DNA of 64,000 nt, from contig CAYIGH010000001.1 in the NCBI GenBank assembly GCA_964362915.1, positions 24,056 through 88,055 of the forward strand, written 5' to 3'. Below, in pieces: positions 1 to 35,474 of this stretch. This DNA is from Candidatus Woesearchaeota archaeon (GTDB lineage: Archaea > Nanobdellota > Nanobdellia > Pacearchaeales > GW2011-AR1). A program made the translations under genes and the position numbers. The notes below the pieces were generated by a model that made no database searches, was not told the origin of the DNA, and saw only the letters and a program-made list of their open reading frames with translations. The first letter of the stretch is position 1, and every line of letters starts with the position of its first letter.

Positions 1-500
1 TCTGCCAAATTTTTTTTCTGCATTTCTGCTGTTCTGGCAAATGTTTTCCAGACTTTTAGAAGTATTCCTTTATACCATAAATCTAATTCTTTTTCAATTA
101 TTTTTATATCCTCTCCAGGATAATAGTTTTGTACTGTTGGTTTGCCTTCGCCATCTGTTTCTCCAGATATGTCAACAACATGTATAAAAGCATCGGCAGA
201 TGCCAAATCATTTAGAAATTCGTTACCAAGACCTTTTCCTTGACTGGCTCCTTCGACTAAACCTGCTACATCCATTAATTCAAATGGCACAAATCTCCAA
301 CTGCCTTTCATATATCCTTCTCTAGGATTGCTTTGCTTTCCGAATTCCTGCGCTAGATCAGGGATTTTTATGTATGCCATGCCTCTATTAGGCTTGATTG
401 TTGCAAATGGATAATTCGCGATAAGAACATCTGCCAGAGTCGCTGCTTTGAAAAATGTGCTTTTTCCACTGTTTGGGCGTCCTACAAGGCCTATTAACAT
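1..500 (-). CDS. Obg-like ATPase/GTPase (YchF/OLA1 family); N-terminal part, C-terminus lies beyond the window edge
   Basis: Reverse translation from the start codon at 498-500 gives MLIGLVGRPNSGKSTFFKAAT...DVAGLVEGASQGKGLGNEFL. This carries the P-loop and G3 motifs typical of YchF/OLA1. The ORF runs off the 5' edge of the window. Confidence 0.75.
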   Translation of the reverse strand, partial: MLIGLVGRPNSGKSTFFKAATLADVLIANYPFATIKPNRGMAYIKIPDLAQEFGKQSNPREGYMKGSWRFVPFELMDVAGLVEGASQGKGLGNEFLNDLASADAFIHVVDISGETDGEGKPTVQNYYPGEDIKIIEKELDLWYKGILLKVWKTFARTAEMQKKNLA

Positions 501-550
501 ATTAAAAATCGAAAACGAAACTTTAAATATCTTTATAAATTGGATTTTAT

Positions 551-723
551 GATCCCATAGCTCAGCCCGGTTTAGAGCACCGCTCTTATAAGACTATGGT
601 TCGTTGGAACTGTATTTTCAAGCTAAGAAGATTTAGAAAGTCTTCAAGCAAAGCAAGGGTGTTAAACACACTCTTCAAAGCTAAGAAAGGCGGGGGTCCG
701 GAGTTCAAATCTCCGTGGGATCA
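551..723 (+). tRNA. tRNA with apparent UAU anticodon (tRNA-Ile-like), carrying a ~97-nt intron at the canonical 37/38 position (approx 591-687)
   Basis: Acceptor GATCCCA pairs with TGGGATC and the discriminator is A. D-arm is GCTC-AGCCCGGTTTA-GAGC. Anticodon stem CCGCT/GGCGG pairs only after removing the insert. Loop is CTTATA|A, T-arm is CGGAG-TTCAAAT-CTCCG, and no CCA is encoded. Confidence 0.55.
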
Positions 724-1662
724 TCTCTTGCAAAAAACCAAGGCATATTCTTCTTCAGGATCTTTTATTAATTCCACATTGTCAAAATACATGTCACAGA
801 AGTCTCTTAATTCATCAGCATATAATTTATATTGAAACGCCACAATGATCTCGTCTCCTTTTTCTAATTGTACTTTTTTATTTTTCTGCTCGATTGTTTT
901 ATTTACTTTTATCTTATAGTATGCCTCCAACCTATTATGGGCGAATCTTGCATTATACTCTACTTCTTTGTCTTTGAAGCCAAGTTCTTTCATTAGATAT
1001 ATAAGCCATTCATTGAATAATGGGTGTTTGTATGTTTCTAAATTCGCAAACCTCTCGCCTTTCCTTATGCCGTTCCCTATTAATAAAACATCTCCTGGAA
1101 GCATAGACCTGCTCAAGTTGAATAGGTAATCATTAATATCAAAGCTGGCCAAAAGTGATCCAAGAAGAAGGAAAACATTTTTTTGGTATTTGTTGTTCCT
1201 TAATGCTGCTCCTATCTCATCTAGGCTCTTGAAATCTTTTGAAATTCTAGAAGCATAATCAATTATATTAAGAAAATTTTCTTTTTTTACATTTTCTAGA
1301 GCCAGTTTTACCAAGTATTCATTAACATTAATAGGGCAATATCTTAATTTTATTTCTTGAGGCAATTCTTTTATTATTGCTATCGCTTTTTCGCCGTTTG
1401 TGGTTCCCATATCTATTAGATTAAACTCGCAGTCACTTACACATTTAATAAAGCTTTTAATGTTCTCTTTTAGTAATTTTTTTTCTATGTCTATAACTAT
1501 TGCTTTATATCTAGGATGCTCACTTAGTCTTAGATATGCCTCTGCCATCTCTTTATTTATATATCTAAATGATCTGTCTGAAATATCCCAGATATTCACG
1601 CTATTTTCTACAGAATGCCCTTTCTTTATCAGCTCTTTAAAGAGTATTTCTTTCATTAGCAT
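721..1662 (-). CDS. SAM-dependent methyltransferase, EgtD-like (Methyltransf_33 family)
   Basis: 313-aa ORF. Motifs LIDMGTTNGEKA, FLLLGSLLASFD and LPGDVLLIGNGIRKG align to the EgtD-type histidine N-methyltransferase signature blocks. Confidence 0.6.
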   Translation of the reverse strand: MLMKEILFKELIKKGHSVENSVNIWDISDRSFRYINKEMAEAYLRLSEHPRYKAIVIDIEKKLLKENIKSFIKCVSDCEFNLIDMGTTNGEKAIAIIKELPQEIKLRYCPINVNEYLVKLALENVKKENFLNIIDYASRISKDFKSLDEIGAALRNNKYQKNVFLLLGSLLASFDINDYLFNLSRSMLPGDVLLIGNGIRKGERFANLETYKHPLFNEWLIYLMKELGFKDKEVEYNARFAHNRLEAYYKIKVNKTIEQKNKKVQLEKGDEIIVAFQYKLYADELRDFCDMYFDNVELIKDPEEEYALVFCKR

Positions 1663-1767
1663 ATTATATACATACTTTTTAACTTTTTAGTCTTTTCTAT
1701 TTTATTATGCCTTCTTTTTGTTTTTGAACAGGAAGGTTTAAAAGTGAATTCAATTTTAGTTTGATAT

Positions 1768-1932
1768 GCCCTTGTAGTCTAGAAGCCAAGGACGCGGCCC
1801 TTTCGCGGGGCAAGGAAACCTTCAACTCTTATGAGATTGAAGTTTTTCCTTAACCATCAACCTTCCTCTAAAATAGGATGTCGATGACCTCGAAGAACGG
1901 CCGAAACCCGGGTGCGAATCCCGGCAGGGGCA
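1768..1932 (+). tRNA. tRNA-Glu (anticodon UUC) with a ~92-nt intron at 37/38 (approx 1806-1897); T-loop TGCGAAT is noncanonical at position 55
   Basis: Acceptor GCCCTTG pairs with CAGGGGC (one G-U) and the discriminator is A. D-stem is GTCT/GGAC. Anticodon stem CGGCC/GGCCG is perfect only after excising 1806-1897. Loop is C-T-TTC-G, T-stem CCGGG/CCCGG, variable loop 4 nt. Confidence 0.6.
1919..1932. repeat. Copy 1 of the 14-nt GC-rich core CCCGGCAGGGGCAT (3' T-stem plus acceptor strand of tRNA-Glu)
   Basis: Exact 14-mer shared with 5071-5084, and 13 of 14 shared with 6274-6287. The background is AT-rich. Confidence 0.8.
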
Positions 1933-2082
1933 TGCATGCGTAAATTGGGCTATGCCCCATGGAGCATAAACAAAATAAAATTCGAATCGTGGGTGGGGCA
2001 TGGAATGTTGGGAAGTTCAAATCCCATCCGAGGAAGTGAAAAACAAAAAATAAAAAGTCAGAGAATTTAATGAAAAAGTAAA

Positions 2083-2553
2083 ATGAAAAAGAAATTTGAA
2101 TTTTTTTCAACTATTGCAGTGATATTAATAATTTTAACAGCTCTTGTGGATGTTACCCTATCTAATGTAGAAGAAGACTATCAGAATGAAATGTTAGATT
2201 TAATCCTTAAGGTAACAGTATTATATAATGATATGGTTTTGGCCCATAATGGAACTCCTTTGACCTTTGCTACAAGTACGCACGAAACTAACTTTGATGA
2301 AGTGGGAGTAGCTATAGGTTATAAAGAAGGAGAAGATACCTCAAGAATTTATGTTGTTGGAGCTAATTTAACAGCAGAACAAGTAGCTGGAGATATAAGG
2401 GACATTAAAGAAGAAAGAAGAGATAAATTATTCCTTATTAAAACATTAAAAACTCTTAAATGGATATTTGTGATTGCTTCTATTGTTTTATTACTTATCG
2501 CTATAAATAAAGGATTGCATAATATAAAATCCAACAATCAGCAAACTATTTAA
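2083..2553 (+). CDS. hypothetical membrane protein (N- and C-terminal TM helices)
   Basis: 156-aa ORF with hydrophobic segments at both ends. No recognisable family. Confidence 0.5.
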   Translation: MKKKFEFFSTIAVILIILTALVDVTLSNVEEDYQNEMLDLILKVTVLYNDMVLAHNGTPLTFATSTHETNFDEVGVAIGYKEGEDTSRIYVVGANLTAEQVAGDIRDIKEERRDKLFLIKTLKTLKWIFVIASIVLLLIAINKGLHNIKSNNQQTI

Positions 2554-2569
2554 ATCAAGTTTTATTATA

Positions 2570-2980
2570 TTGAACATGAAAAAAGAAATAATTATTGGAT
2601 TAGTTATTGGAATCATTGTAGGATTAATAATAGCTTTTATTTTGCCTATCTCTAATGTGATAAACAAGGAAGAGAAAACTATGACAAATGATGTCCCTTG
2701 GGAAAATATTGGTTATTTTTTAGTAGGTTTTGAGAATAGCGTTGAGGATGGAATAGAACTCTGGAAAACACATGAAATAACCTCTGCAAACTTTAGAATT
2801 AAAATAGATGGGAATCCAGGAACAATTTACATAAATGATTGTAGAGATGAATTTGAAAGGCTTAATTATCCTGCAGTAGAAAATGAGATTGGGAAACCAA
2901 TTAATTATTGTGGTATAACTCAAATTGGTGCTTACACGGATGGATATTTTGATTGTAAATGTTACTACCCACAAAAATAA
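2570..2980 (+). CDS. hypothetical secreted/membrane-anchored Cys-containing protein
   Basis: 136-aa ORF with an N-terminal TM/signal segment and a C-terminal Cys-rich region (CRDEF...CGITQ...CKC). Confidence 0.45.
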   Translation: MNMKKEIIIGLVIGIIVGLIIAFILPISNVINKEEKTMTNDVPWENIGYFLVGFENSVEDGIELWKTHEITSANFRIKIDGNPGTIYINDCRDEFERLNYPAVENEIGKPINYCGITQIGAYTDGYFDCKCYYPQK

Positions 2981-3100
2981 AAATCGGAGGAAAAACAAGA
3001 ATTAACTTGAAGTGACAACCCCCTCGCGATAACTTCTAAACAGAAAAATTTATAAATATTGGAATACCAATAATATTATTGGATAAACAATAATATTGAA

Positions 3101-3700
3101 ATGGTAGATGAAAATAAATTATCAGAAAATGAACTGAGAGTATTGAGTAGTTTTTTTCCGGAGGGAAAGGAAATAACAATAAAGATGATTCAGGAAAGAA
3201 CAAAATTATCTTATGAGCCCGCTCATAGAATAATAAAGCAATTACTTGAGAGAGAACTAGTTATTGAAAAGAAGTTTGGAAAGACTCTTGTTTATTCATT
3301 ATCTTTTTCAAAAGAAAAAATTAAAATTGGTTTTATCCTCTATGCAAATGAGAAAAAAGAGAGATTTGCAGAGAAATATGGAGTAATTTACAGAGCATTA
3401 TCGAAAATTAGCGAAGAAGATATTGATTTTTTAGCTGTCTTTGGCAGTTATTCGAAGGGGAATCCTACAAAAAAAAGTGATGTTGATGTGCTTTGTGTTA
3501 GTTCTAATAAGAATAAGGTTGAAAACGAAATAAAAGGATTAAGATATGAAACAAATATTGAATTTGCCCCTGTTGTAATATCAAAAACAGAGTTTGCAAA
3601 AATTAAAAATGAGAATAAACAATTTTGGAAGGATTTGGTGGACTATGGAATAATATTTAAGGGTTATGAACTATTTTACTATCATGCTTATTTAAAATGA
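3101..3700 (+). CDS. winged-HTH fused to a minimal nucleotidyltransferase (MNT/MntA-like antitoxin domain)
   Basis: The C-terminal half carries FGSYSKGNPTKKSDVDVLCV, the GS...DxD polymerase-beta-like NTase motif. The N-terminus looks like a wHTH. Confidence 0.6.
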   Translation: MVDENKLSENELRVLSSFFPEGKEITIKMIQERTKLSYEPAHRIIKQLLERELVIEKKFGKTLVYSLSFSKEKIKIGFILYANEKKERFAEKYGVIYRALSKISEEDIDFLAVFGSYSKGNPTKKSDVDVLCVSSNKNKVENEIKGLRYETNIEFAPVVISKTEFAKIKNENKQFWKDLVDYGIIFKGYELFYYHAYLK

Positions 3701-4218
3701 TGAAATCAATAAACTTTTACATAAAAAGAGAACTCCTAATTAGAGATGAGACTGTTAAAATTTTAGCTAATGAATATCTAACCAAATCTAAAAATAATCT
3801 TATTACGTTGAGAATATTAGATGAACTCCAAGATGACAAAGTGTTTAGAAAAAAGTATAATATTCCTAATGATTATTCAACTTATGAGTGGGTTGTAATC
3901 TGTGGATATTACGCCATGTATACTGCCGCAATTTCTTTACTAGCTAAGATCGGTTATAGAAGTAAGAATCATACAGCAACTTTATGTGTCTTAGAAGAAT
4001 TTTTTGTCAAAAAGAAAATTCTAGATGAAGATATTTTGCTGTTGCTCAAATCGGCAATGTTCCAAAAAGAAGAAATTGAAAAGTTATCTGATGCAAGACA
4101 TAAAAGAGAGATAGCTCAGTACAGTATTACAAAACAAACAACAAAATCAATTGCAGAAAAAATAAAAAAAGATGCTTATGATTTTATCAACAAATGTGAG
4201 GAGATAATTAAACAATAG
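3697..4218 (+). CDS. putative HEPN-like helical protein paired with the upstream MNT (toxin-antitoxin-like module)
   Basis: Start overlaps the MNT stop by 4 nt (ATGA). The 173-aa helical protein is the right size for a HEPN partner. No canonical Rx4-6H motif is evident, so the call rests on context. Confidence 0.35.
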   Translation: MMKSINFYIKRELLIRDETVKILANEYLTKSKNNLITLRILDELQDDKVFRKKYNIPNDYSTYEWVVICGYYAMYTAAISLLAKIGYRSKNHTATLCVLEEFFVKKKILDEDILLLLKSAMFQKEEIEKLSDARHKREIAQYSITKQTTKSIAEKIKKDAYDFINKCEEIIKQ

Positions 4219-4235
4219 AAGGGAAAATTAAGAAT

Positions 4236-4460
4236 ATGAATGAATCTTGTAAAACTTGTCGCAAAGAGTTTAATTCTGGAATTTGGTTAGCTCCAGAATT
4301 TGCAGATGAAAAGGTTCTTTTGTTCTGCTCTGAGAAATGTAAAGAGAAGTACCTTAAAATGAAACTTAATAGGATAAGAACACAATATCCTAGACACTAT
4401 AACAGGATAAAAGAGGGAAAGGTCAAGAGTATTTATAGCGAGGTTATGAAAAATGAATGA
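4236..4460 (+). CDS. small zinc-finger protein (CxxC...CxxxC)
   Basis: 74 aa with CKTCRKEF...CSEKCKEKY. Confidence 0.4.
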   Translation: MNESCKTCRKEFNSGIWLAPEFADEKVLLFCSEKCKEKYLKMKLNRIRTQYPRHYNRIKEGKVKSIYSEVMKNE

Positions 4461-4938
4461 TAAGGATAAACAAATTAAAGATGCGATTCGAAGTATGAAA
4501 GAGTTTGAAATGGCTTGGCAGGAATATTTCGAAGATAAGCCAGAGCCAGAAAATGATGAAGATGAGAAAAAAGAGCAGGAAGAATTTCATCATTGGTATA
4601 ATCATGTAAGAAAGCAAAGCGATACTGGAAAAACTCCTGCTGAAATGTATAAGGAGATTTATGGAAAAGAACCCCCTAAAAACCCAACAGAAATAAGCAG
4701 AATGATGAATTTTGAATGGGATGAATATACTGACGAAGAAGAAATTAATCCTTTAGCTAGATATTGTCCAGAGTGTGATGATTGGGGGCTTATAGTTACT
4801 GAAGATCCTAATGTATATGAATGTGAGATTTGTGGTTCAATCTGGAAAAGATTAAAACCACTAAATGATGGGACTAGAAACATGATTAATATGCCTGAAA
4901 AGTTGAAGAAGTCAATAAAAACTAGAAAAATAAAGTGA
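4453..4938 (+). CDS. zinc-ribbon domain protein, acidic N-terminus
   Basis: 161 aa with YCPECDDWG...YECEICGS, a four-Cys ribbon. Start overlaps the previous stop. Confidence 0.4.
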   Translation: MNDKDKQIKDAIRSMKEFEMAWQEYFEDKPEPENDEDEKKEQEEFHHWYNHVRKQSDTGKTPAEMYKEIYGKEPPKNPTEISRMMNFEWDEYTDEEEINPLARYCPECDDWGLIVTEDPNVYECEICGSIWKRLKPLNDGTRNMINMPEKLKKSIKTRKIK

Positions 4939-5070
4939 TTTCATTAATAATCATATTCACAAAGAGAGGAAAAAGCAAGAAGATGGCTTGAAGGGCAAAT
5001 CTCTCCTGAGGCATGGAACTAAAATATCATGCCCATATGGAGCATTGTCCAAAAAATGGCAAAGGCCACC

Positions 5071-5084
5071 CCCGGCAGGGGCAT
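5071..5084. repeat. Copy 2 of CCCGGCAGGGGCAT (direct repeat of the tRNA-Glu 3' end); candidate att-site remnant
   Basis: Exact match to 1919-1932, same orientation, lying in a 250-nt noncoding GC-rich stretch. Confidence 0.7.
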
Positions 5085-5187
5085 TCGCGCTAAAGACCAT
5101 AGGTTTGAGAGACATTCTACTTCATATATTCCTTACGTGAAAGAAACATAGGGAAAGGAAAGAGTCTTGAAGTTTTTGCAACATATT

Positions 5188-5325
5188 ATGGAGGATTATC
5201 AAGACACTTTATCAAAATATAATGGAAAGTGTGAAATCTGTGGAAAAGACACATGGAAAGGAAAGAAGTTGTGTTTGAAGTGTTACAAAGACAGAAGACC
5301 TAATAAAATACTGAAAAATCAGTAA
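5188..5325 (+). CDS. small zinc-ribbon protein (45 aa), not in the ORF track
   Basis: Translates to MEDYQDTLSKYNGKCEICGKDTWKGKKLCLKCYKDRRPNKILKNQ, with two CxxC pairs. Confidence 0.3.
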   Translation: MEDYQDTLSKYNGKCEICGKDTWKGKKLCLKCYKDRRPNKILKNQ

Positions 5326-5517
5326 TGTTACTGACAGAACAATAAAAAATATATACTTGAATAATCTAAATTTAAAATGGATGAATTAATCGGAATTATT
5401 GAGGATAAAGGGGATAGCGTGAAAGAAATTAAAGAACTAAGGAAAAAATTATCTAATGAATTTAATCGAAAAGAAAAGGGCAGAAAAACCTAAATATGTC
5501 TATTCTTTAATCCGTTC

Positions 5518-5859
5518 ATGATAAAAAATCATTCCGAAGAGGTGAAGAAACTAATTAATCAATACAAAAAGAAAATCGTCTTTGGAAAAGACATAGATTT
5601 TTTGATTAAAAGAATCAAAGTCTCAAAAGAAGAGATCGAGAAGGAAATACTAGAGTGTAAAAATCTCGTCTTAGCAGAAAAACAAATTAAAGACGGAGAA
5701 ACGAGATATGCTTTGTTTTTCACCTATAGCAAAAGAAAGGGAAGAAAATACGTGGTAACGTTTAGAGATAAGAATATAAGAATCATAACGATATTTCTGT
5801 TAGGTAGAAAAACCCTCAAAAGATATAAGAAAAAAGGTTTAAATACAAGGAGTAACTAA
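5518..5859 (+). CDS. hypothetical protein, possible DUF4258-like partner of the downstream DUF2283 gene
   Basis: 113-aa basic protein immediately upstream (8-nt gap) of a DUF2283-like ORF. The pairing is contextual only. Confidence 0.35.
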   Translation: MIKNHSEEVKKLINQYKKKIVFGKDIDFLIKRIKVSKEEIEKEILECKNLVLAEKQIKDGETRYALFFTYSKRKGRKYVVTFRDKNIRIITIFLLGRKTLKRYKKKGLNTRSN

Positions 5860-5866
5860 ATCTAAC

Positions 5867-6232
5867 ATGAAAGAACATAGATTTAATTATGATAATGTAA
5901 GTGACGTTTTGTATATTCAAAATGTCGTGAAAGATGTAGAGGAAAGTGTAGAGTTTTCTGAAGACATTGTTTTGGACTTAGACAAAAACGGAAATGTTAT
6001 TGGAGTAGAGATATTTTATGCTAGTGAATTTCTTGGTTTATTCAATAAAGAAATAAATAGAGAGTTTTTAGAAAACCTAAAAGAAGCATATATTGAATAC
6101 AGAGATTTTAGAAATATCTGGTTTGTTGTGTTAATGTTACAATCTAAAGATAAACAAATATCTCAGCCGTTGCCACCACTAAGAAAATCCGAGTATGTTA
6201 ACCCAATAGTTCAATATTTAAAAGCACAATAA
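5867..6232 (+). CDS. DUF2283-like protein
   Basis: N-terminus DVLYIQNV...VLDLDKNGNVIGVEI matches the DUF2283 signature (D.L.I......D.D..G.V.GIEI). Confidence 0.5.
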   Translation: MKEHRFNYDNVSDVLYIQNVVKDVEESVEFSEDIVLDLDKNGNVIGVEIFYASEFLGLFNKEINREFLENLKEAYIEYRDFRNIWFVVLMLQSKDKQISQPLPPLRKSEYVNPIVQYLKAQ

Positions 6233-6273
6233 AAATAATTCTCTCCCTCATAAATGTACTAAACTGGTCTAAG

Positions 6274-6287
6274 CTCGGCAGGGGCAT
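6274..6287. repeat. Copy 3 (CTCGGCAGGGGCAT) of the tRNA-Glu 3' end core
   Basis: 13/14 identity with the two other copies, same orientation, in an intergenic position. Confidence 0.6.
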
Positions 6288-6680
6288 GATATCTTTTTGA
6301 TGAATTTAGTGGGCATACAAAAGGCATACAAGTTATTTATAAGAATAACTCGCCTTGTTAAATCATGAAAATGTCTGTCACATACAAAACGAATCATGTT
6401 TATGTTTTACTTATGATAACTTTCAAAAAAGAGGGTAAAGAAGTTAATATTCCGATTCCATTGACAATCGGTTTAGGATATAAAGAACCAAAAAAAGATG
6501 TTTTGGTTTATAATTAATCACACTAAAACACAGGGGAAAAACAAAGTAGAAACTTCTTTAAATAGGGCTAAAAAATTTAATGAGGAGGTTAGAAAAATTT
6601 TATAATGTTGTAGTAATAAACTTAAATAATTTAGACAATAAATTCCCACAGTTTAAAAACTGTAGTTTCCTTATTAGAGT

Positions 6681-6911
6681 ATGAAAAAAATAAGAGTTAA
6701 TATAACTGTAGATAAGGATTTGCTGAATAGAGCCAAAACAAAATTGCAGCTGTTCGGAGGGAAATTAAGCACTTTATTTAATGCGTTTCTTTCTGATTTT
6801 GTTAATACATTGGGAAAAGACGCCTCAAGTGGATATAAAATTTTGCAAAAGAAGATGGATGATCTTGAACAAAGATTAATAAAACTAGAAAATAAATATA
6901 GCAGGTTATGA
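6681..6911 (+). CDS. small ribbon-helix-helix-like protein (putative antitoxin/DNA-binding)
   Basis: 76 aa. N-terminus RVNITVDKDLLNRAK is typical of RHH/CopG-type antitoxins. Confidence 0.35.
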   Translation: MKKIRVNITVDKDLLNRAKTKLQLFGGKLSTLFNAFLSDFVNTLGKDASSGYKILQKKMDDLEQRLIKLENKYSRL

Positions 6912-33176: not shown

Positions 33177-35474
33177 ATGGATAAAATAGCAAATATAACT
33201 CTATTCTCTTTTATAGGATTAATATCTTTTATAATCATATTTTCTATCTTCTTTGCCACTTCTCAACAAACAACCATCGAAGAAGAGATTTTTGTTCCTT
33301 CTGTACAAAATAACCAAGAGATTATCTATTATGATTATAAATTTTCAAATACGTCTGGAGTTATTATATTAACGAAAAGAGAAGCATCTTGTTTTTGGAA
33401 ACCTGACGATATTGACGATGGTTGGAAAAATTGCGAATCCATCTTTGAAATAGAGAATCAAAAGGGGGATAAGCCTATTATAAGTTTTCCCTTCATTAAT
33501 TTTAGTTTTGCTAAAAATAATGTTAGAAACCATAGTATATATTTCTCAAACACATATACAATAATAAATGAAACATATAATAATTTTTCAAAAACTTATT
33601 TTGGAGATGTTATTGAGGAGGTTATACAACTTAAAAAGAGACAATTTGTGAATTTTACTTCTCTACCGAACTATCTCGATACTTCAAAACCTTTTGCTAT
33701 CAAATTAACATTTGAGGTTCCAAAATATGAAGAAAATATATTTAATTTTACTATTTCAGGAGAAGAATTTATTGGTTTTATAGACCCGGATATTAATAGC
33801 TGTAGTTTCTTAGGGGTCCCCAATACAGTTTATACATTAGTCATTAATGTTAGTTCGTTAGGCACATGTTTTACGATACTGGCAAATAATATTACATTAA
33901 ATGGTAACGGTTATCATATTAATTATAGTGTAGCGGGAACTAGTAATAGATATGGGATTTATATAAAAGGCGCAAATCAAACTACTATAAAGAATTTTAG
34001 AAAAATATTTGAGGAGAATAGTAATGGAATTCATAAGTATGGAATATATTTTGATAAAGCGCATGAAGGGATCGTAAATAATGTTACTATAGAAACAATT
34101 GGAATTTCAAGTGATGGTATAAGAATAAATAATGGTAATGATACAAAAATAAACAATACTAAAGTAATTACTCTTGGAGATAGTGCGGTGGGCATTTATT
34201 TATACGGCTCGAGCTCATCAATTATAAATAATAATAATATCACCACCAATAAGACTTCTGCGAGAGGAATTGAACTTGGTGCAAGATCAAACTTTAATAA
34301 ATTAAGCAATAATATAATTACTACAGAGGGCAATGAATCAACGGGTATTTTATTAGATTCTTCTTCAATAAATATTATCAATAATAACATTATTAGAACA
34401 TTCAATAATAATGCGGAGGGCATCAACTTTGCTGATGCACAAAATAATACAATAAATTATAGTATTGTTACAACTCTTAGTAATAATGCAAGTGGAATTT
34501 TTATAGGCGGTTCGTCAGATGGTAATCTAATTTATAACTCTTTCTTCAATTCATCTTTAGCAAATGATATTTTATTCTTTTGGACCTCTGCTGGAACTCT
34601 TAACCTTACTAATGTAACACTTGCTAATAACAATGTAAACTTTAACCCATTATCAACATCACGACTTAATGTTCACTGGTACTTTGATGCACAAGTTAAT
34701 GATAGCTCGAAAAATCCTCTTGAAAATGTGAATGTTTCTGCATGGGATATTAATAATGTACTAAGATTTAGTGATTTAACAAATAATATCGGTAGGATAA
34801 AACAGCAAGCCCTCCTAGAGTATGTACAGAACAATACTCAAAAAATATATCATACCAATTATACGATAAATGCAACAAAAGATGGTTTCACAGAATCAAA
34901 AAGCGTTAATCTAACTGCAAATACATTTATGACATTTATTCTTCCAACTACCATCATTCTTACATCGGATAATATTGTAGAAGACGGTGATATTAACTAT
35001 GAAATTAGCTCCGGATTATACAAAAGAGATAAAACTTCTATTACTATAGAAATAGGAAATGCATACTATTATATCTCTAGAAGCTATATTGAATTTAATA
35101 CGTCTTCAATTCCAGATAGTGCTATAATCAAAAATGTATCTTTAAATATATCTTTTGATACATTAGGTACTAGGAATTGTACTATTAATGAAGTAAGTGA
35201 ACAACCTTCCATTATATCAAATCAGACTCTTTATATAGATATTGGTAATGGTACTACATATATAAATAATGATGACTTTTGTAGGACAGGTTCGTCAACT
35301 AAATCAAAAGTTGATCTTGGAGCTAGTGCCAATATTGATCTTGAAAATTTACTTTCATCAAATTGGTTTGGTATAGGTATTAAATGGGATAATGAAATAA
35401 CTGCGGCTACTACTGCTTTAACTAATGCTTCTGAAAGCTCCTCATCACCACTCCTTACTGTAAGTTATATTTAA
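33177..35474 (+). CDS. membrane-anchored surface protein with right-handed parallel beta-helix (PbH1) repeats
   Basis: N-terminal TM. Asn-rich repeated ~22-aa units (NNVTIETIGISSDGIRINNGNDTKINNTKVI...GIELGARSNFNKLSNNIITTEG...). Confidence 0.6.
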   Translation: MDKIANITLFSFIGLISFIIIFSIFFATSQQTTIEEEIFVPSVQNNQEIIYYDYKFSNTSGVIILTKREASCFWKPDDIDDGWKNCESIFEIENQKGDKPIISFPFINFSFAKNNVRNHSIYFSNTYTIINETYNNFSKTYFGDVIEEVIQLKKRQFVNFTSLPNYLDTSKPFAIKLTFEVPKYEENIFNFTISGEEFIGFIDPDINSCSFLGVPNTVYTLVINVSSLGTCFTILANNITLNGNGYHINYSVAGTSNRYGIYIKGANQTTIKNFRKIFEENSNGIHKYGIYFDKAHEGIVNNVTIETIGISSDGIRINNGNDTKINNTKVITLGDSAVGIYLYGSSSSIINNNNITTNKTSARGIELGARSNFNKLSNNIITTEGNESTGILLDSSSINIINNNIIRTFNNNAEGINFADAQNNTINYSIVTTLSNNASGIFIGGSSDGNLIYNSFFNSSLANDILFFWTSAGTLNLTNVTLANNNVNFNPLSTSRLNVHWYFDAQVNDSSKNPLENVNVSAWDINNVLRFSDLTNNIGRIKQQALLEYVQNNTQKIYHTNYTINATKDGFTESKSVNLTANTFMTFILPTTIILTSDNIVEDGDINYEISSGLYKRDKTSITIEIGNAYYYISRSYIEFNTSSIPDSAIIKNVSLNISFDTLGTRNCTINEVSEQPSIISNQTLYIDIGNGTTYINNDDFCRTGSSTKSKVDLGASANIDLENLLSSNWFGIGIKWDNEITAATTALTNASESSSSPLLTVSYI

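What the first reader, a model, noticed from the sequence alone, without database searches (positions are those of the whole stretch)
1919..6287. Three direct copies of the tRNA-Glu 3' end bracket a 4.3-kb island of TA modules and zinc-ribbon genes: scar of tRNA-targeted integration
CCCGGCAGGGGCAT (3' T-stem strand plus acceptor strand of tRNA-Glu) recurs at 1919, 5071 and 6274 in the same orientation, in an otherwise AT-rich sequence. Integrases that target tRNA genes duplicate exactly this part of the tRNA as attL/attR. The enclosed genes are all on one strand, small, and of accessory type: wHTH-MNT plus HEPN-like, a DUF2283 pair, and Zn-ribbon proteins. The pattern fits one or two tandem integrated elements, or their remnants, with no recognisable integrase gene.
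Basis: partly seen in the sequence, partly recalled or inferred. Interest (0 to 1): 0.65.

Follow-up and report, generated by a model that had tools for sequence, protein, structure and literature searches.

The report
Integrase-less insertions stacked at tRNA-Glu
Downstream of a tRNA-Glu gene in a tiny groundwater archaeon (DPANN group) lie one or two small mobile-DNA insertions that have no integrase gene of their own; this is an ordinary kind of genomic island, but the family it belongs to does not seem to have been described.

Summary
CCCGGCAGGGGCAT is exact at 1920-1933 (not 1919) and at 5071-5084. The third copy, 6274-6287, has one mismatch. The 14-mer is the 3' end of an intron-bearing tRNA-Glu(UUC), 1767-1933.

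The segment between copies 1 and 2 (3151 bp) has conserved end modules. The left one (1934-2051) matches a profile built from other contigs at E 3.7e-24, and the right one (4950-5070) at E 4.5e-19. In relatives the same right module lies beside a ~470-aa tyrosine integrase gene.

A related 1455-bp element without an integrase is present in one metagenome contig and precisely absent in another. The two copies of its flanking repeat are exactly this 14-mer. That identifies the 14-mer as the attachment core.

No integrase or integrase fragment occurs anywhere in the 64-kb window. Five assemblies of the same population show the same arrangement.

The segment between copies 2 and 3 (1203 bp) has no recognisable end modules. 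Calling it a second element is weaker.

Composition is not deviant. No related genome gives a true empty site for this particular locus.

Verdict: a new member of a known kind, tRNA-targeted integrative elements stacked in tandem. The family is DPANN-specific and I found no description of it. Interest is moderate.

The parts
1767..1933 (+). tRNA-Glu(UUC) gene with a 92-nt intron at the canonical position. This is the integration target (attB side of attL).
   Evidence: ARAGORN with introns; Rfam RF00005, 41.7 bits; cloverleaf fold with z = -4.1. The methyltransferase to tRNA-Glu synteny is conserved in L037, L039, L041 and L042.
1920..1933 (+). Core copy 1 (CCCGGCAGGGGCAT). It is the 3' end of the tRNA and the left direct repeat.
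   Evidence: The same 14 bp is the exact overlap between the occupied contig L056 and the empty contig L058.
1934..2051 (+). Left end module (P'-arm-like). It holds the palindrome CTATGC-N8-GCATA (1950-1968), a pseudo-core TTCGAATCGTGGGTGGGGCAT (1981-2001) and further GGNGCAT-type half-sites.
   Evidence: nhmmer with a profile built from L056, L046, L047 and L053, excluding the window: hit at 1920-2051, E 3.7e-24. Alignment.
2083..2980 (+). Cargo: two small predicted membrane or secreted proteins (2083-2553 and 2576-2980).
   Evidence: ORFs. No Pfam, PHROG or PADLOC family. Both have a hydrophobic N-terminal segment visible in the sequence.
2961..3013 (+). Internal half of a right-end module (E motif GAGGAAAAACAAGAATTAACTTGAAG). 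It may mark the junction of two fused elements.
   Evidence: Pairwise alignment to L037, 72 nt downstream of its tRNA-Glu: z = 8.1. Alignment to the window's own right module: z = 3.5. The motif occurs nowhere else in about 670 kb of related DNA. With the independent profile it is not significant (E 0.44).
3101..4218 (+). Cargo: wHTH plus minimal nucleotidyltransferase (3101-3700) and HEPN (3697-4218), overlapping by 4 nt. This is a toxin-antitoxin-type pair.
   Evidence: Pfam NTP_transf_2 at 3.2e-09 and HEPN at 1.7e-05. PADLOC candidate PDC-M05A at 1.9e-13.
4236..4938 (+). Cargo: two Cys-rich zinc-ribbon-like proteins (74 aa and 161 aa).
   Evidence: Only sub-threshold Pfam hits. CxxC pairs are visible in the translations.
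4950..5070 (+). Right end module (P-arm-like). It holds the E motif (4966-4993), a pseudo-core GCAAATCTCTCCTGAGGCAT (4996-5015), the palindrome ATGCCCATATGGAGCAT (5029-5045), and CCACC abutting the core.
   Evidence: nhmmer with a profile from L056 plus the integrase-bearing L059, L061 and L065, excluding the window: hit at 4950-5084, E 4.5e-19.
5071..5084 (+). Core copy 2, exact. It is the right direct repeat of element 1 and the left repeat of segment 2.
   Evidence: Identical in the same-population contigs L067-L069.
5085..6273 (+). Segment 2, a possible second and older or unrelated element. It encodes a 52-aa Zn-ribbon protein (5167-5325), a 38-aa ORF (5377-5493), a BrnT/DUF497-like protein (5518-5859) and DUF2283 (5867-6232).
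   Evidence: Neither end resembles the end modules (z below 0). Homologues of the gene pair at 77% identity sit in an unrelated chromosomal context with no core nearby.
6274..6287 (+). Core copy 3 (CTCGGCAGGGGCAT, 13/14).
   Evidence: The same mismatch is present in L067-L070.
6288..6650 (.). Unassigned spacer between copy 3 and the start of conserved synteny. It contains the rearrangement breakpoint relative to L002-L004.
   Evidence: tblastx synteny with L002-L004 starts at about 6656. In those relatives L18e-L13-S9 lies on this side, and these genes are absent from the window. A weak E-motif-like stretch lies at 6507-6563 (family D4; p = 0.028).

Best explanation
The region is a tandem stack of integrative-element DNA at the 3' end of tRNA-Glu(UUC) in a DPANN (Pacearchaeota/Woesearchaeota-type) chromosome.

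Element 1 (1934-5084, 3151 bp) belongs to a family of elements that insert by tyrosine-recombinase site-specific recombination. The recombination is between a 14-bp core on the element and the identical last 14 bp of the tRNA gene. The tRNA is left intact and the core is duplicated on either side of the insert. Element 1 keeps both element-specific arms. These are rich in GGGGCAT-like half-sites and palindromes and are presumably integrase-binding sites. It has lost, or never had, the integrase gene, the small ORF next to it and the other backbone genes. It now carries only accessory cargo: two membrane proteins, an MNT/HEPN pair and zinc-ribbon proteins. An internal half right-arm at 2961-3013 suggests that element 1 is itself two elements fused by deletion.

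Segment 2 (5085-6287) ends in a 13/14 copy of the core and carries a BrnT-like/DUF2283 pair. It is probably an older or unrelated insertion at the same site whose arms are gone.

Shown: the repeats, the arm homology, the presence/absence polymorphism in relatives, the association of the right arm with integrase genes, and the absence of an integrase here. Inferred: that the ~470-aa integrase family is the enzyme responsible, that the half-sites bind it, and that an integrase supplied in trans could still move element 1.

The confidence given (0.8) is for the overall reading. For element 1 alone it is about 0.9. For segment 2 as a separate insertion it is about 0.55.
For: - The 14-mer statistics and its identity with the tRNA 3' end.
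- Occupied versus empty site. L058 1-242 matches L056 897-1137 at 98.8%, and L058 229-841 matches L056 2579-3189 at 85%. The overlap is exactly the 14-mer, which defines a 1455-bp integrase-less element.
- The window's left arm matches a profile built without it at E 3.7e-24, and its right arm at E 4.5e-19.
- The right arm lies between a 48-51-aa ORF and the core, next to divergent 468-473-aa Phage_integrase genes, in L059, L061 and L065.
- L041 has a 474-aa integrase (PF00589, 38 bits) 440 nt 3' of the same tRNA-Glu. L039, L054 and L057 have a 390-aa recombinase-like gene 64 nt after it.
- L061 shows a second integrase element starting directly after the core of the first, which is tandem stacking.
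- Further repeated cores next to this tRNA-Glu occur in L046 (+75 nt) and L051 (+1167 nt, flanking a Fic gene).
- The DNA 3' of tRNA-Glu differs in every relative, while the 5' side is syntenic.
- No integrase is present in the window.
- Tandem integration and loss of the integrase gene after integration are established for archaeal elements (PMC8371274; PMC6563490).
Against: - No integrase, and no fragment of one, in 64 kb. The link to an enzyme is by homology of the arms only.
- GC content and tetranucleotide usage of the island are typical of the window.
- The window's cargo genes have no homologues in the sampled integrase-bearing elements.
- Five independent assemblies of the same population show no presence/absence variation, so there is no sign of current mobility.
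- Segment 2 has no arms, and its gene pair occurs elsewhere without cores.
- No relative has tRNA-Glu joined to the window's right flank, so the exact outer boundary of the stack (6287 or about 6650) is not established.
- The internal half right-arm is not significant with the independent profile (E 0.44).
Confidence: 0.8

Rival explanations
1. The conserved ~125-nt sequence after the tRNA, and its partial copy before copy 2, are a structured non-coding RNA or tRNA-like processing signal co-transcribed with tRNA-Glu. On this view they are not recombination-site arms.
For: The module is conserved in five divergent contigs. It contains hairpins and tRNA-3'-end-like stretches of the form T-loop TTCGAAT, 5 nt, 7 nt, A. 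All island genes are on the same strand as the tRNA.
Against: L058 has the same tRNA with no module at all, so it is dispensable. The consensus fold has a positive (unfavourable) covariation term, +2.76, and the stems are mostly invariant. No Rfam family matches even at E up to 10. The right module lies next to integrase genes and away from any tRNA in L059, L061 and L065.
Confidence: 0.05
2. Only element 1 is a real insertion. Copy 3 is the displaced original tRNA end or an unrelated partial tRNA fragment, and 5085-6287 is ordinary chromosomal DNA, or part of a larger single element whose true right end is copy 3.
For: Segment 2 has no arm homology at either end. Its BrnT-like/DUF2283 pair occurs at 77% identity in a plain chromosomal context in other genomes. 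Copy 3 is imperfect.
Against: A 13/14 match in the same orientation, 1.2 kb from copy 2, is unlikely by chance (expectation 0.06 for all matches with up to 2 mismatches in the window). Relatives share nothing with 5085-6650. Stacks with several cores occur in relatives (L046, L061).
Confidence: 0.3
3. The repeats arose by local duplication and decay of tRNA-Glu gene copies (tRNA gene cluster remnants), without any mobile element.
For: Pseudo-cores resemble up to 20 nt of the tRNA 3' end, 14-16 of 20 identical by direct comparison of the sequences. Relatives carry a second tRNA-Glu(CUC) nearby in L041.
Against: Only the last 14 nt are exactly repeated, with the same boundaries in the window and in L056. 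No 5' tRNA portions are present. The precise presence/absence polymorphism and the integrase association are not explained.
Confidence: 0.03

Closest known systems
Tandem arrays of tyrosine-recombinase integrative elements at archaeal tRNA genes (for example the integrated elements of Thaumarchaeota, Thermococcales and Methanococcales reviewed in PMC6563490 and PMC8371274)
   Same: The target is the 3' part of a tRNA gene. The insert is flanked by direct repeats that form attL and attR. Several elements are stacked at one tRNA. The integrase gene can be lost after integration. The cargo is toxin-antitoxin and defence genes.
   Different: The host is a DPANN archaeon; the 2021 review of archaeal tyrosine recombinases does not mention DPANN at all. 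The core is very short (14 bp). The arms are made of repeated tRNA-3'-end-like pseudo-cores and palindromes. The related ~470-aa integrases have no close solved relative by sequence.
CIMEs (cis-mobilizable elements) and accretion arrays of streptococcal ICEs/IMEs (PMC5704250, PMC7563491)
   Same: Elements are bounded by functional-looking att sites but lack recombination genes. They lie in tandem with, or are derived from, integrase-bearing relatives at the same tRNA or gene 3' end. Mobilisation in trans by a related integrase has been proposed.
   Different: CIMEs are bacterial and are tied to conjugative elements. Here no conjugation or replication module is known, and trans-mobilisation is only inferred.
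SSV-type ('suicidal') archaeal integrases that split their own gene on integration (PMC7253208)
   Same: They are archaeal, target the tRNA 3' end, and leave an element with no intact integrase gene once integrated.
   Different: No ORF overlaps any core copy in a way that could be an int(N) or int(C) fragment. tblastn with related integrases finds nothing. In the related autonomous elements the integrase gene is intact and separate from the core, so the system is not SSV-type.

Membership tests
tRNA-targeted tyrosine-recombinase integrative element | Direct repeats identical to the 3' part of a tRNA gene flank the insert, and the tRNA is left intact | tested here: met
   Exact 14-bp copies at 1920-1933 and 5071-5084, and a 13/14 copy at 6274-6287. 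The tRNA-Glu is intact.
tRNA-targeted tyrosine-recombinase integrative element | Insert absent from the same site in related genomes (empty site) | tested here: inconclusive
   For the window's own locus no relative keeps the right-hand synteny. The island genes are absent 3' of tRNA-Glu in L037, L039, L041 and L042. For a sister element of the same family, a precise empty site (L058) versus occupied site (L056) was found.
tRNA-targeted tyrosine-recombinase integrative element | Encodes a tyrosine integrase | tested here: not met
   No Pfam integrase among the island ORFs. tblastn with the L041 integrase and the L002 Xer protein finds nothing in 64 kb. The element is therefore non-autonomous or decayed.
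tRNA-targeted tyrosine-recombinase integrative element | Element-specific att arms shared with integrase-bearing relatives | tested here: met
   The right arm matches a profile from L056, L059, L061 and L065 at E 4.5e-19. The left arm matches a profile from L056, L046, L047 and L053 at E 3.7e-24. The left arm has not been seen in an integrase-bearing element, because the left ends of those elements were not captured.
tRNA-targeted tyrosine-recombinase integrative element | Recombination activity of the integrase on core plus arms | not testable with these tools
   Requires an in vitro or in vivo recombination assay.
CIME-like cis-mobilizable element | Both att sites intact, with no recombination or transfer genes | tested here: met
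   Exact cores and both arms are present for 1934-5084. No integrase.
CIME-like cis-mobilizable element | Excision or mobilisation when a cognate integrase is supplied in trans | not testable with these tools
   The only indirect evidence is the L056/L058 polymorphism of an integrase-less sister element. No variation was seen in five assemblies of this population.
SSV-type integrase element | att core lies inside the integrase ORF, giving int(N) and int(C) fragments at the two ends | tested here: not met
   ORFs overlapping the cores are at most 80 aa, with no integrase similarity. Related integrases are intact and separate from the core.
Type VII MNT/HEPN toxin-antitoxin pair (cargo) | Adjacent minimal nucleotidyltransferase and HEPN genes | tested here: met
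   NTP_transf_2 at 3.2e-09 and HEPN at 1.7e-05, with the genes overlapping by 4 nt. A GS-x10-DVD motif is visible in the 3101-3700 translation. No clear Rx4-6H motif was seen in the HEPN protein, so toxin activity is not established.

The most novel reading that the evidence does not exclude
DPANN archaea of this clade host a previously undescribed family of tRNA-Glu-specific integrative elements. The autonomous members encode a divergent ~470-aa tyrosine recombinase and their own tRNA-Glu(CUC). The family has spawned miniature integrase-less cassettes of 1.5-3 kb that keep both att arms, carry single defence or toxin-antitoxin modules, and are moved in trans. This would make the tRNA-Glu 3' end a cassette-exchange platform, somewhat like an integron, in genomes otherwise thought to be streamlined.
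Probability: 0.3. Interest if true: 0.6.

Novelty: new member of a known kind. Interest (0 to 1): 0.42.

Why it matters
DPANN archaea have tiny genomes and depend on hosts. How they gain and exchange accessory genes is poorly documented, and the main review of archaeal tyrosine recombinases does not cover them.

This locus and its relatives define a concrete integration system:
- the target, tRNA-Glu(UUC);
- a 14-bp core;
- both att arms;
- a candidate integrase family;
- an occupied/empty site pair.

The system appears to shuttle toxin-antitoxin, NYN, Fic and restriction-modification genes among groundwater Pacearchaeota/Woesearchaeota-type genomes. It offers defined substrates for testing a divergent archaeal integrase. 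For annotation it gives a rule: tRNA-Glu 3' fragments in these genomes mark island boundaries and are not pseudogenes.

As a biological phenomenon it is an expected kind of genomic island.

Tried and rejected
- The default ARAGORN and Rfam gathering scans missed the tRNA-Glu because of its intron. It was recovered with intron mode and with the E-value threshold.
- I fetched 35 loci from GTDB species genomes using the downstream DUF655 gene. None has tRNA-Glu nearby, so they could not serve as empty sites. They only fixed the start of right-hand synteny at about 6656.
- PHROGs gave no meaningful viral annotation for the cargo.
- Scans of viral contigs found nothing: the right arm plus core, the left arm, and the integrase protein all returned 0 loci. 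There is no evidence that the family is viral.
- The left- and right-arm profiles found no other copies in the 64 kb.
- I looked for arm remnants after copy 2, before copy 3 and after copy 3. None is significant (z below 0). The stretch 6480-6680 against the right arm gives p = 0.028, which I treat as unsupported.
- The integrase has no solved relative by sequence.
- The 390-aa (L039) and 474-aa (L041) recombinases are only marginally alike (E 0.009). I do not claim they are one family.
- Composition does not support foreign origin.
- I rejected the idea that the tRNA intron came in with the element, because the identity block of 14 bp does not reach the anticodon loop.

Full report
**What the window is.** The flanking genes are archaeal: ribosomal proteins L21e and S13, Rpo4 and DUF655. 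The closest public relatives are metagenome-assembled genomes labelled Nanoarchaeota, Woesearchaeota or Pacearchaeota, that is, DPANN archaea. A Hainich groundwater contig, L001, is 99.95% identical to window 1-3815. Four more contigs from the same site match at 99.5-100%.

**Checking the observation.** CCCGGCAGGGGCAT is exact at 1920-1933 and at 5071-5084. Position 6274-6287 reads CTCGGCAGGGGCAT, a 13/14 match. These are the only matches with up to 2 mismatches in the 64 kb. Chance expectation is 0.06.

The default tRNA scan found no tRNA here. With introns allowed, ARAGORN calls tRNA-Glu(UUC) at 1767-1933 with a 92-nt intron. Rfam's tRNA model scores 41.7 bits. The RNA folds as a cloverleaf with a structured intron, z = -4.1.

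The gene content is as described, with one correction. Only 5867-6232 is DUF2283. Its partner 5518-5859 is weakly BrnT/DUF497-like.

Two degenerate copies of the tRNA end lie 68 and 70 nt from the exact ones, at 1988-2001 and 5001-5014. Palindromes of the type ATGCCC-N-GGAGCAT lie between each degenerate copy and its exact partner. GGGGCAT occurs five times in the window, and four of these are in this region.

**Relatives, left side.** The methyltransferase gene 721-1662 has many homologues. Next to the homologues in four independent genomes (L037, L039/L040, L041, L042/L043) lies the same tRNA-Glu(UUC), without an intron and with a single copy of the 14-mer. The DNA 3' of the tRNA is different in every genome.
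- In L041 a 474-aa Phage_integrase gene (38 bits against a cutoff of 27.1) starts 440 nt after the tRNA.
- In L039, L054 and L057 a 390-aa protein with a sub-threshold integrase C-terminal match (E 0.0012) starts 64 nt after the tRNA.
- In L037, L042 and L051 a variable stretch of about 1.1 to 1.7 kb separates the tRNA from a conserved ~950-aa beta-helix protein gene.

**Relatives, right side.** Synteny with the closest GTDB genomes (L002-L004) begins at about 6656, at the 76-aa gene 6681-6911. In those genomes the neighbouring genes on that side are L18e, L13 and S9, and these are not in the window. The right edge of the island therefore coincides with a rearrangement breakpoint. No relative can serve as a simple empty site for this locus.

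**The decisive comparison.** I scanned metagenome contigs with the tRNA-Glu 3' exon and obtained 15 loci.
- Five of them (L046, L047, L050, L053, L056) have, directly after the tRNA, a ~125-nt sequence homologous to window 1934-2051. I call this the left module.
- L056 has a second exact 14-mer 1455 bp downstream. It is preceded by a ~140-nt sequence homologous to window 4950-5070. I call this the right module.
- L058 carries the same tRNA and the same downstream genes as L056 but nothing in between. L058 1-242 aligns to L056 897-1137, and L058 229-841 aligns to L056 2579-3189. The overlap is exactly the 14-mer.

This is an occupied site and an empty site for an integrase-less element that carries a small membrane protein and an NYN nuclease. 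It shows that the 14-mer is the duplicated attachment core.

**Independent statistics for the window.** Profiles built without the window match it strongly.

| Profile | Built from | Hit in window | E-value |
|---|---|---|---|
| Left module | L056, L046, L047, L053 | 1920-2051 | 3.7e-24 |
| Right module | L056, L059, L061, L065 | 4950-5084 | 4.5e-19 |

Neither profile has another significant copy elsewhere in the 64 kb.

**Link to an enzyme.** The L041 integrase has 51 homologues in the protein collection. I examined the surroundings of three of them. They share a backbone, in this order:
- a 48-51-aa ORF, divergent from the integrase gene;
- the 468-473-aa integrase;
- a 132-135-aa ORF;
- a 57-61-aa ORF;
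- a tRNA-Glu(CUC) gene, found in L061-L066 and also in L041;
- cargo such as restriction-modification genes or NYN.

Immediately beyond the small ORF lies the right module, followed by a core variant and then unrelated DNA. In L061 a second element, with a different 392-aa integrase, begins directly after that core, which is tandem stacking.

The right module itself contains two successive tRNA-3'-end-like pseudo-cores before the true core.

The window has no integrase. No island ORF has the domain, and tblastn with the L041 integrase or with an archaeal Xer protein finds nothing. No ORF overlapping a core could be a split SSV-type integrase.

**Anatomy proposed for the window.** In order along the + strand:
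1. tRNA-Glu with core 1
2. the left module
3. two membrane-protein genes
4. an internal half right-module at 2961-3013
5. the wHTH-MNT and HEPN genes
6. two zinc-ribbon genes
7. the full right module
8. core 2
9. the 52-aa Zn-ribbon gene, the 38-aa ORF, the BrnT-like gene and DUF2283
10. core 3 (13/14)
11. about 360 nt of unassigned DNA
12. the conserved chromosome

The internal half-module is strongly similar to a sequence 72 nt after the tRNA-Glu of L037 (z = 8.1). It occurs nowhere else in 670 kb of related DNA. With the independent profile it is not significant (E 0.44). I read it, tentatively, as the seam of two fused elements.

The copy 2 to copy 3 segment has no similarity to either module at either end. 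Homologues of its gene pair sit in ordinary chromosomal contexts elsewhere. Its status as a separate element rests only on the flanking repeats.

**Mechanism.** By analogy with established tyrosine-recombinase integration, a circular element carrying right module, core and left module recombines with the identical 14 bp at the tRNA's 3' end. Direct repeats flank the insert and the tRNA is regenerated (PMC6563490; PMC8371274). Repeated insertion at the regenerated or distal core builds a stack. Deletion removes the backbone genes.

Shown here:
- the repeats;
- the arm homology;
- the site polymorphism in relatives;
- the association of the right arm with integrase genes.

Inferred:
- which integrase acts;
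- that the GGGGCAT-like half-sites and palindromes bind it;
- that integrase-less members can still be moved in trans.

**Rivals.**
- *A conserved RNA.* This is unlikely. L058 lacks the module, the consensus fold has no covariation support, no Rfam family matches, and the right module occurs away from tRNAs beside integrases.
- *Decay of duplicated tRNA genes.* This does not explain identical 14-bp boundaries in two genomes or the precise empty site.
- *One insertion rather than two.* This remains open for segment 2.

**What argues for caution.**
- Composition is not deviant. Island GC is 0.305 against 0.324 for the window, and tetranucleotide distance is average.
- The cargo has no homologues in the sampled autonomous elements.
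- All five assemblies of this population are identical in arrangement.
- The family was not found in viral contigs.
- The left ends of the integrase-bearing elements were not captured, so the left module has not been seen in an autonomous element.

**Novelty and score.** Integration scars at tRNA genes, tandem stacks and loss of the integrase gene are well known in archaea and bacteria. What is new is the particular family:
- a DPANN host;
- a 14-bp tRNA-Glu core;
- arms built of tRNA-end-like pseudo-cores;
- divergent ~470-aa integrases with no solved relative by sequence;
- autonomous members that carry tRNA-Glu(CUC);
- miniature integrase-less members.

My literature searches found no description of it, and the 2021 review of archaeal tyrosine recombinases does not mention DPANN. 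I rate it a new member of a known kind, with moderate interest.

Noticed in passing
window 550-725 and 1767-1933: Both tRNA-Ile(UAU) and tRNA-Glu(UUC) carry long introns (97 and 92 nt) at the canonical position. The tRNA-Glu of L037, L039, L041 and L042 has no intron, while L044 and L055 have one ending in the same AGAACGGC motif. The intron is therefore polymorphic within the clade. The default tRNA scan misses both genes.
   Followed up: partly
L041 710-783; L061 4603-4676; L065 12046-12119; L066 3292-3365: The integrase-bearing elements related to this island carry their own tRNA-Glu(CUC) gene. Its flanks are conserved across L041, L065 and L066, so the tRNA is element cargo. No tRNA-Glu(CUC) lies in the 64-kb window.
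   Followed up: partly
L061 834-3979: Two different tyrosine integrase genes (392 aa and 468 aa) lie back to back. The right module and a degenerate core lie between them, which indicates tandem insertion of two element types at one core.
   Followed up: partly
window 6288-6650: This is a rearrangement breakpoint. In L002-L004 the 76-aa gene (window 6681-6911) is preceded by L18e-L13-S9 and a Xer-like recombinase, none of which is in the window. The breakpoint abuts the island, as would be expected if att-like sites mediated the rearrangement, but this is not shown.
   Followed up: partly
L069 2741-2796 (window position 6220): One contig from the same population has a 54-nt insertion at the 3' end of the DUF2283 gene, giving 124 aa instead of 121 aa. 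It lies just upstream of core copy 3.
   Followed up: no
L051 3018-4198: A Fic-domain gene (332 aa) is bracketed by the tRNA-Glu core and a 12/14 copy (TCTGGCAGGGGCAT) 1167 nt downstream. It lies just before the conserved ~950-aa beta-helix gene. This looks like another single-gene cassette at the same site.
   Followed up: partly
L046 (contig Ga0209541_10095006), the 207 nt after its tRNA-Glu: A 75-nt 'solo' unit joins the first half of the left module to the last half of the right module between two cores. It is followed by three more ATGCCC-N-GCAT palindromes. It looks like the product of recombination between the palindromes of the two arms, which hints that the palindrome may itself be a crossover site.
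   Followed up: no
window 3101-3700: The wHTH plus nucleotidyltransferase protein matches the PADLOC candidate defence family PDC-M05A (E 1.9e-13).
   Followed up: no
window 33765-34931: This stretch encodes a distant relative (29-31% identity) of the ~950-aa beta-helix surface protein that lies just beyond the tRNA-Glu cassette in L037, L042 and L051. In the window it is 27 kb away from the tRNA-Glu.
   Followed up: no
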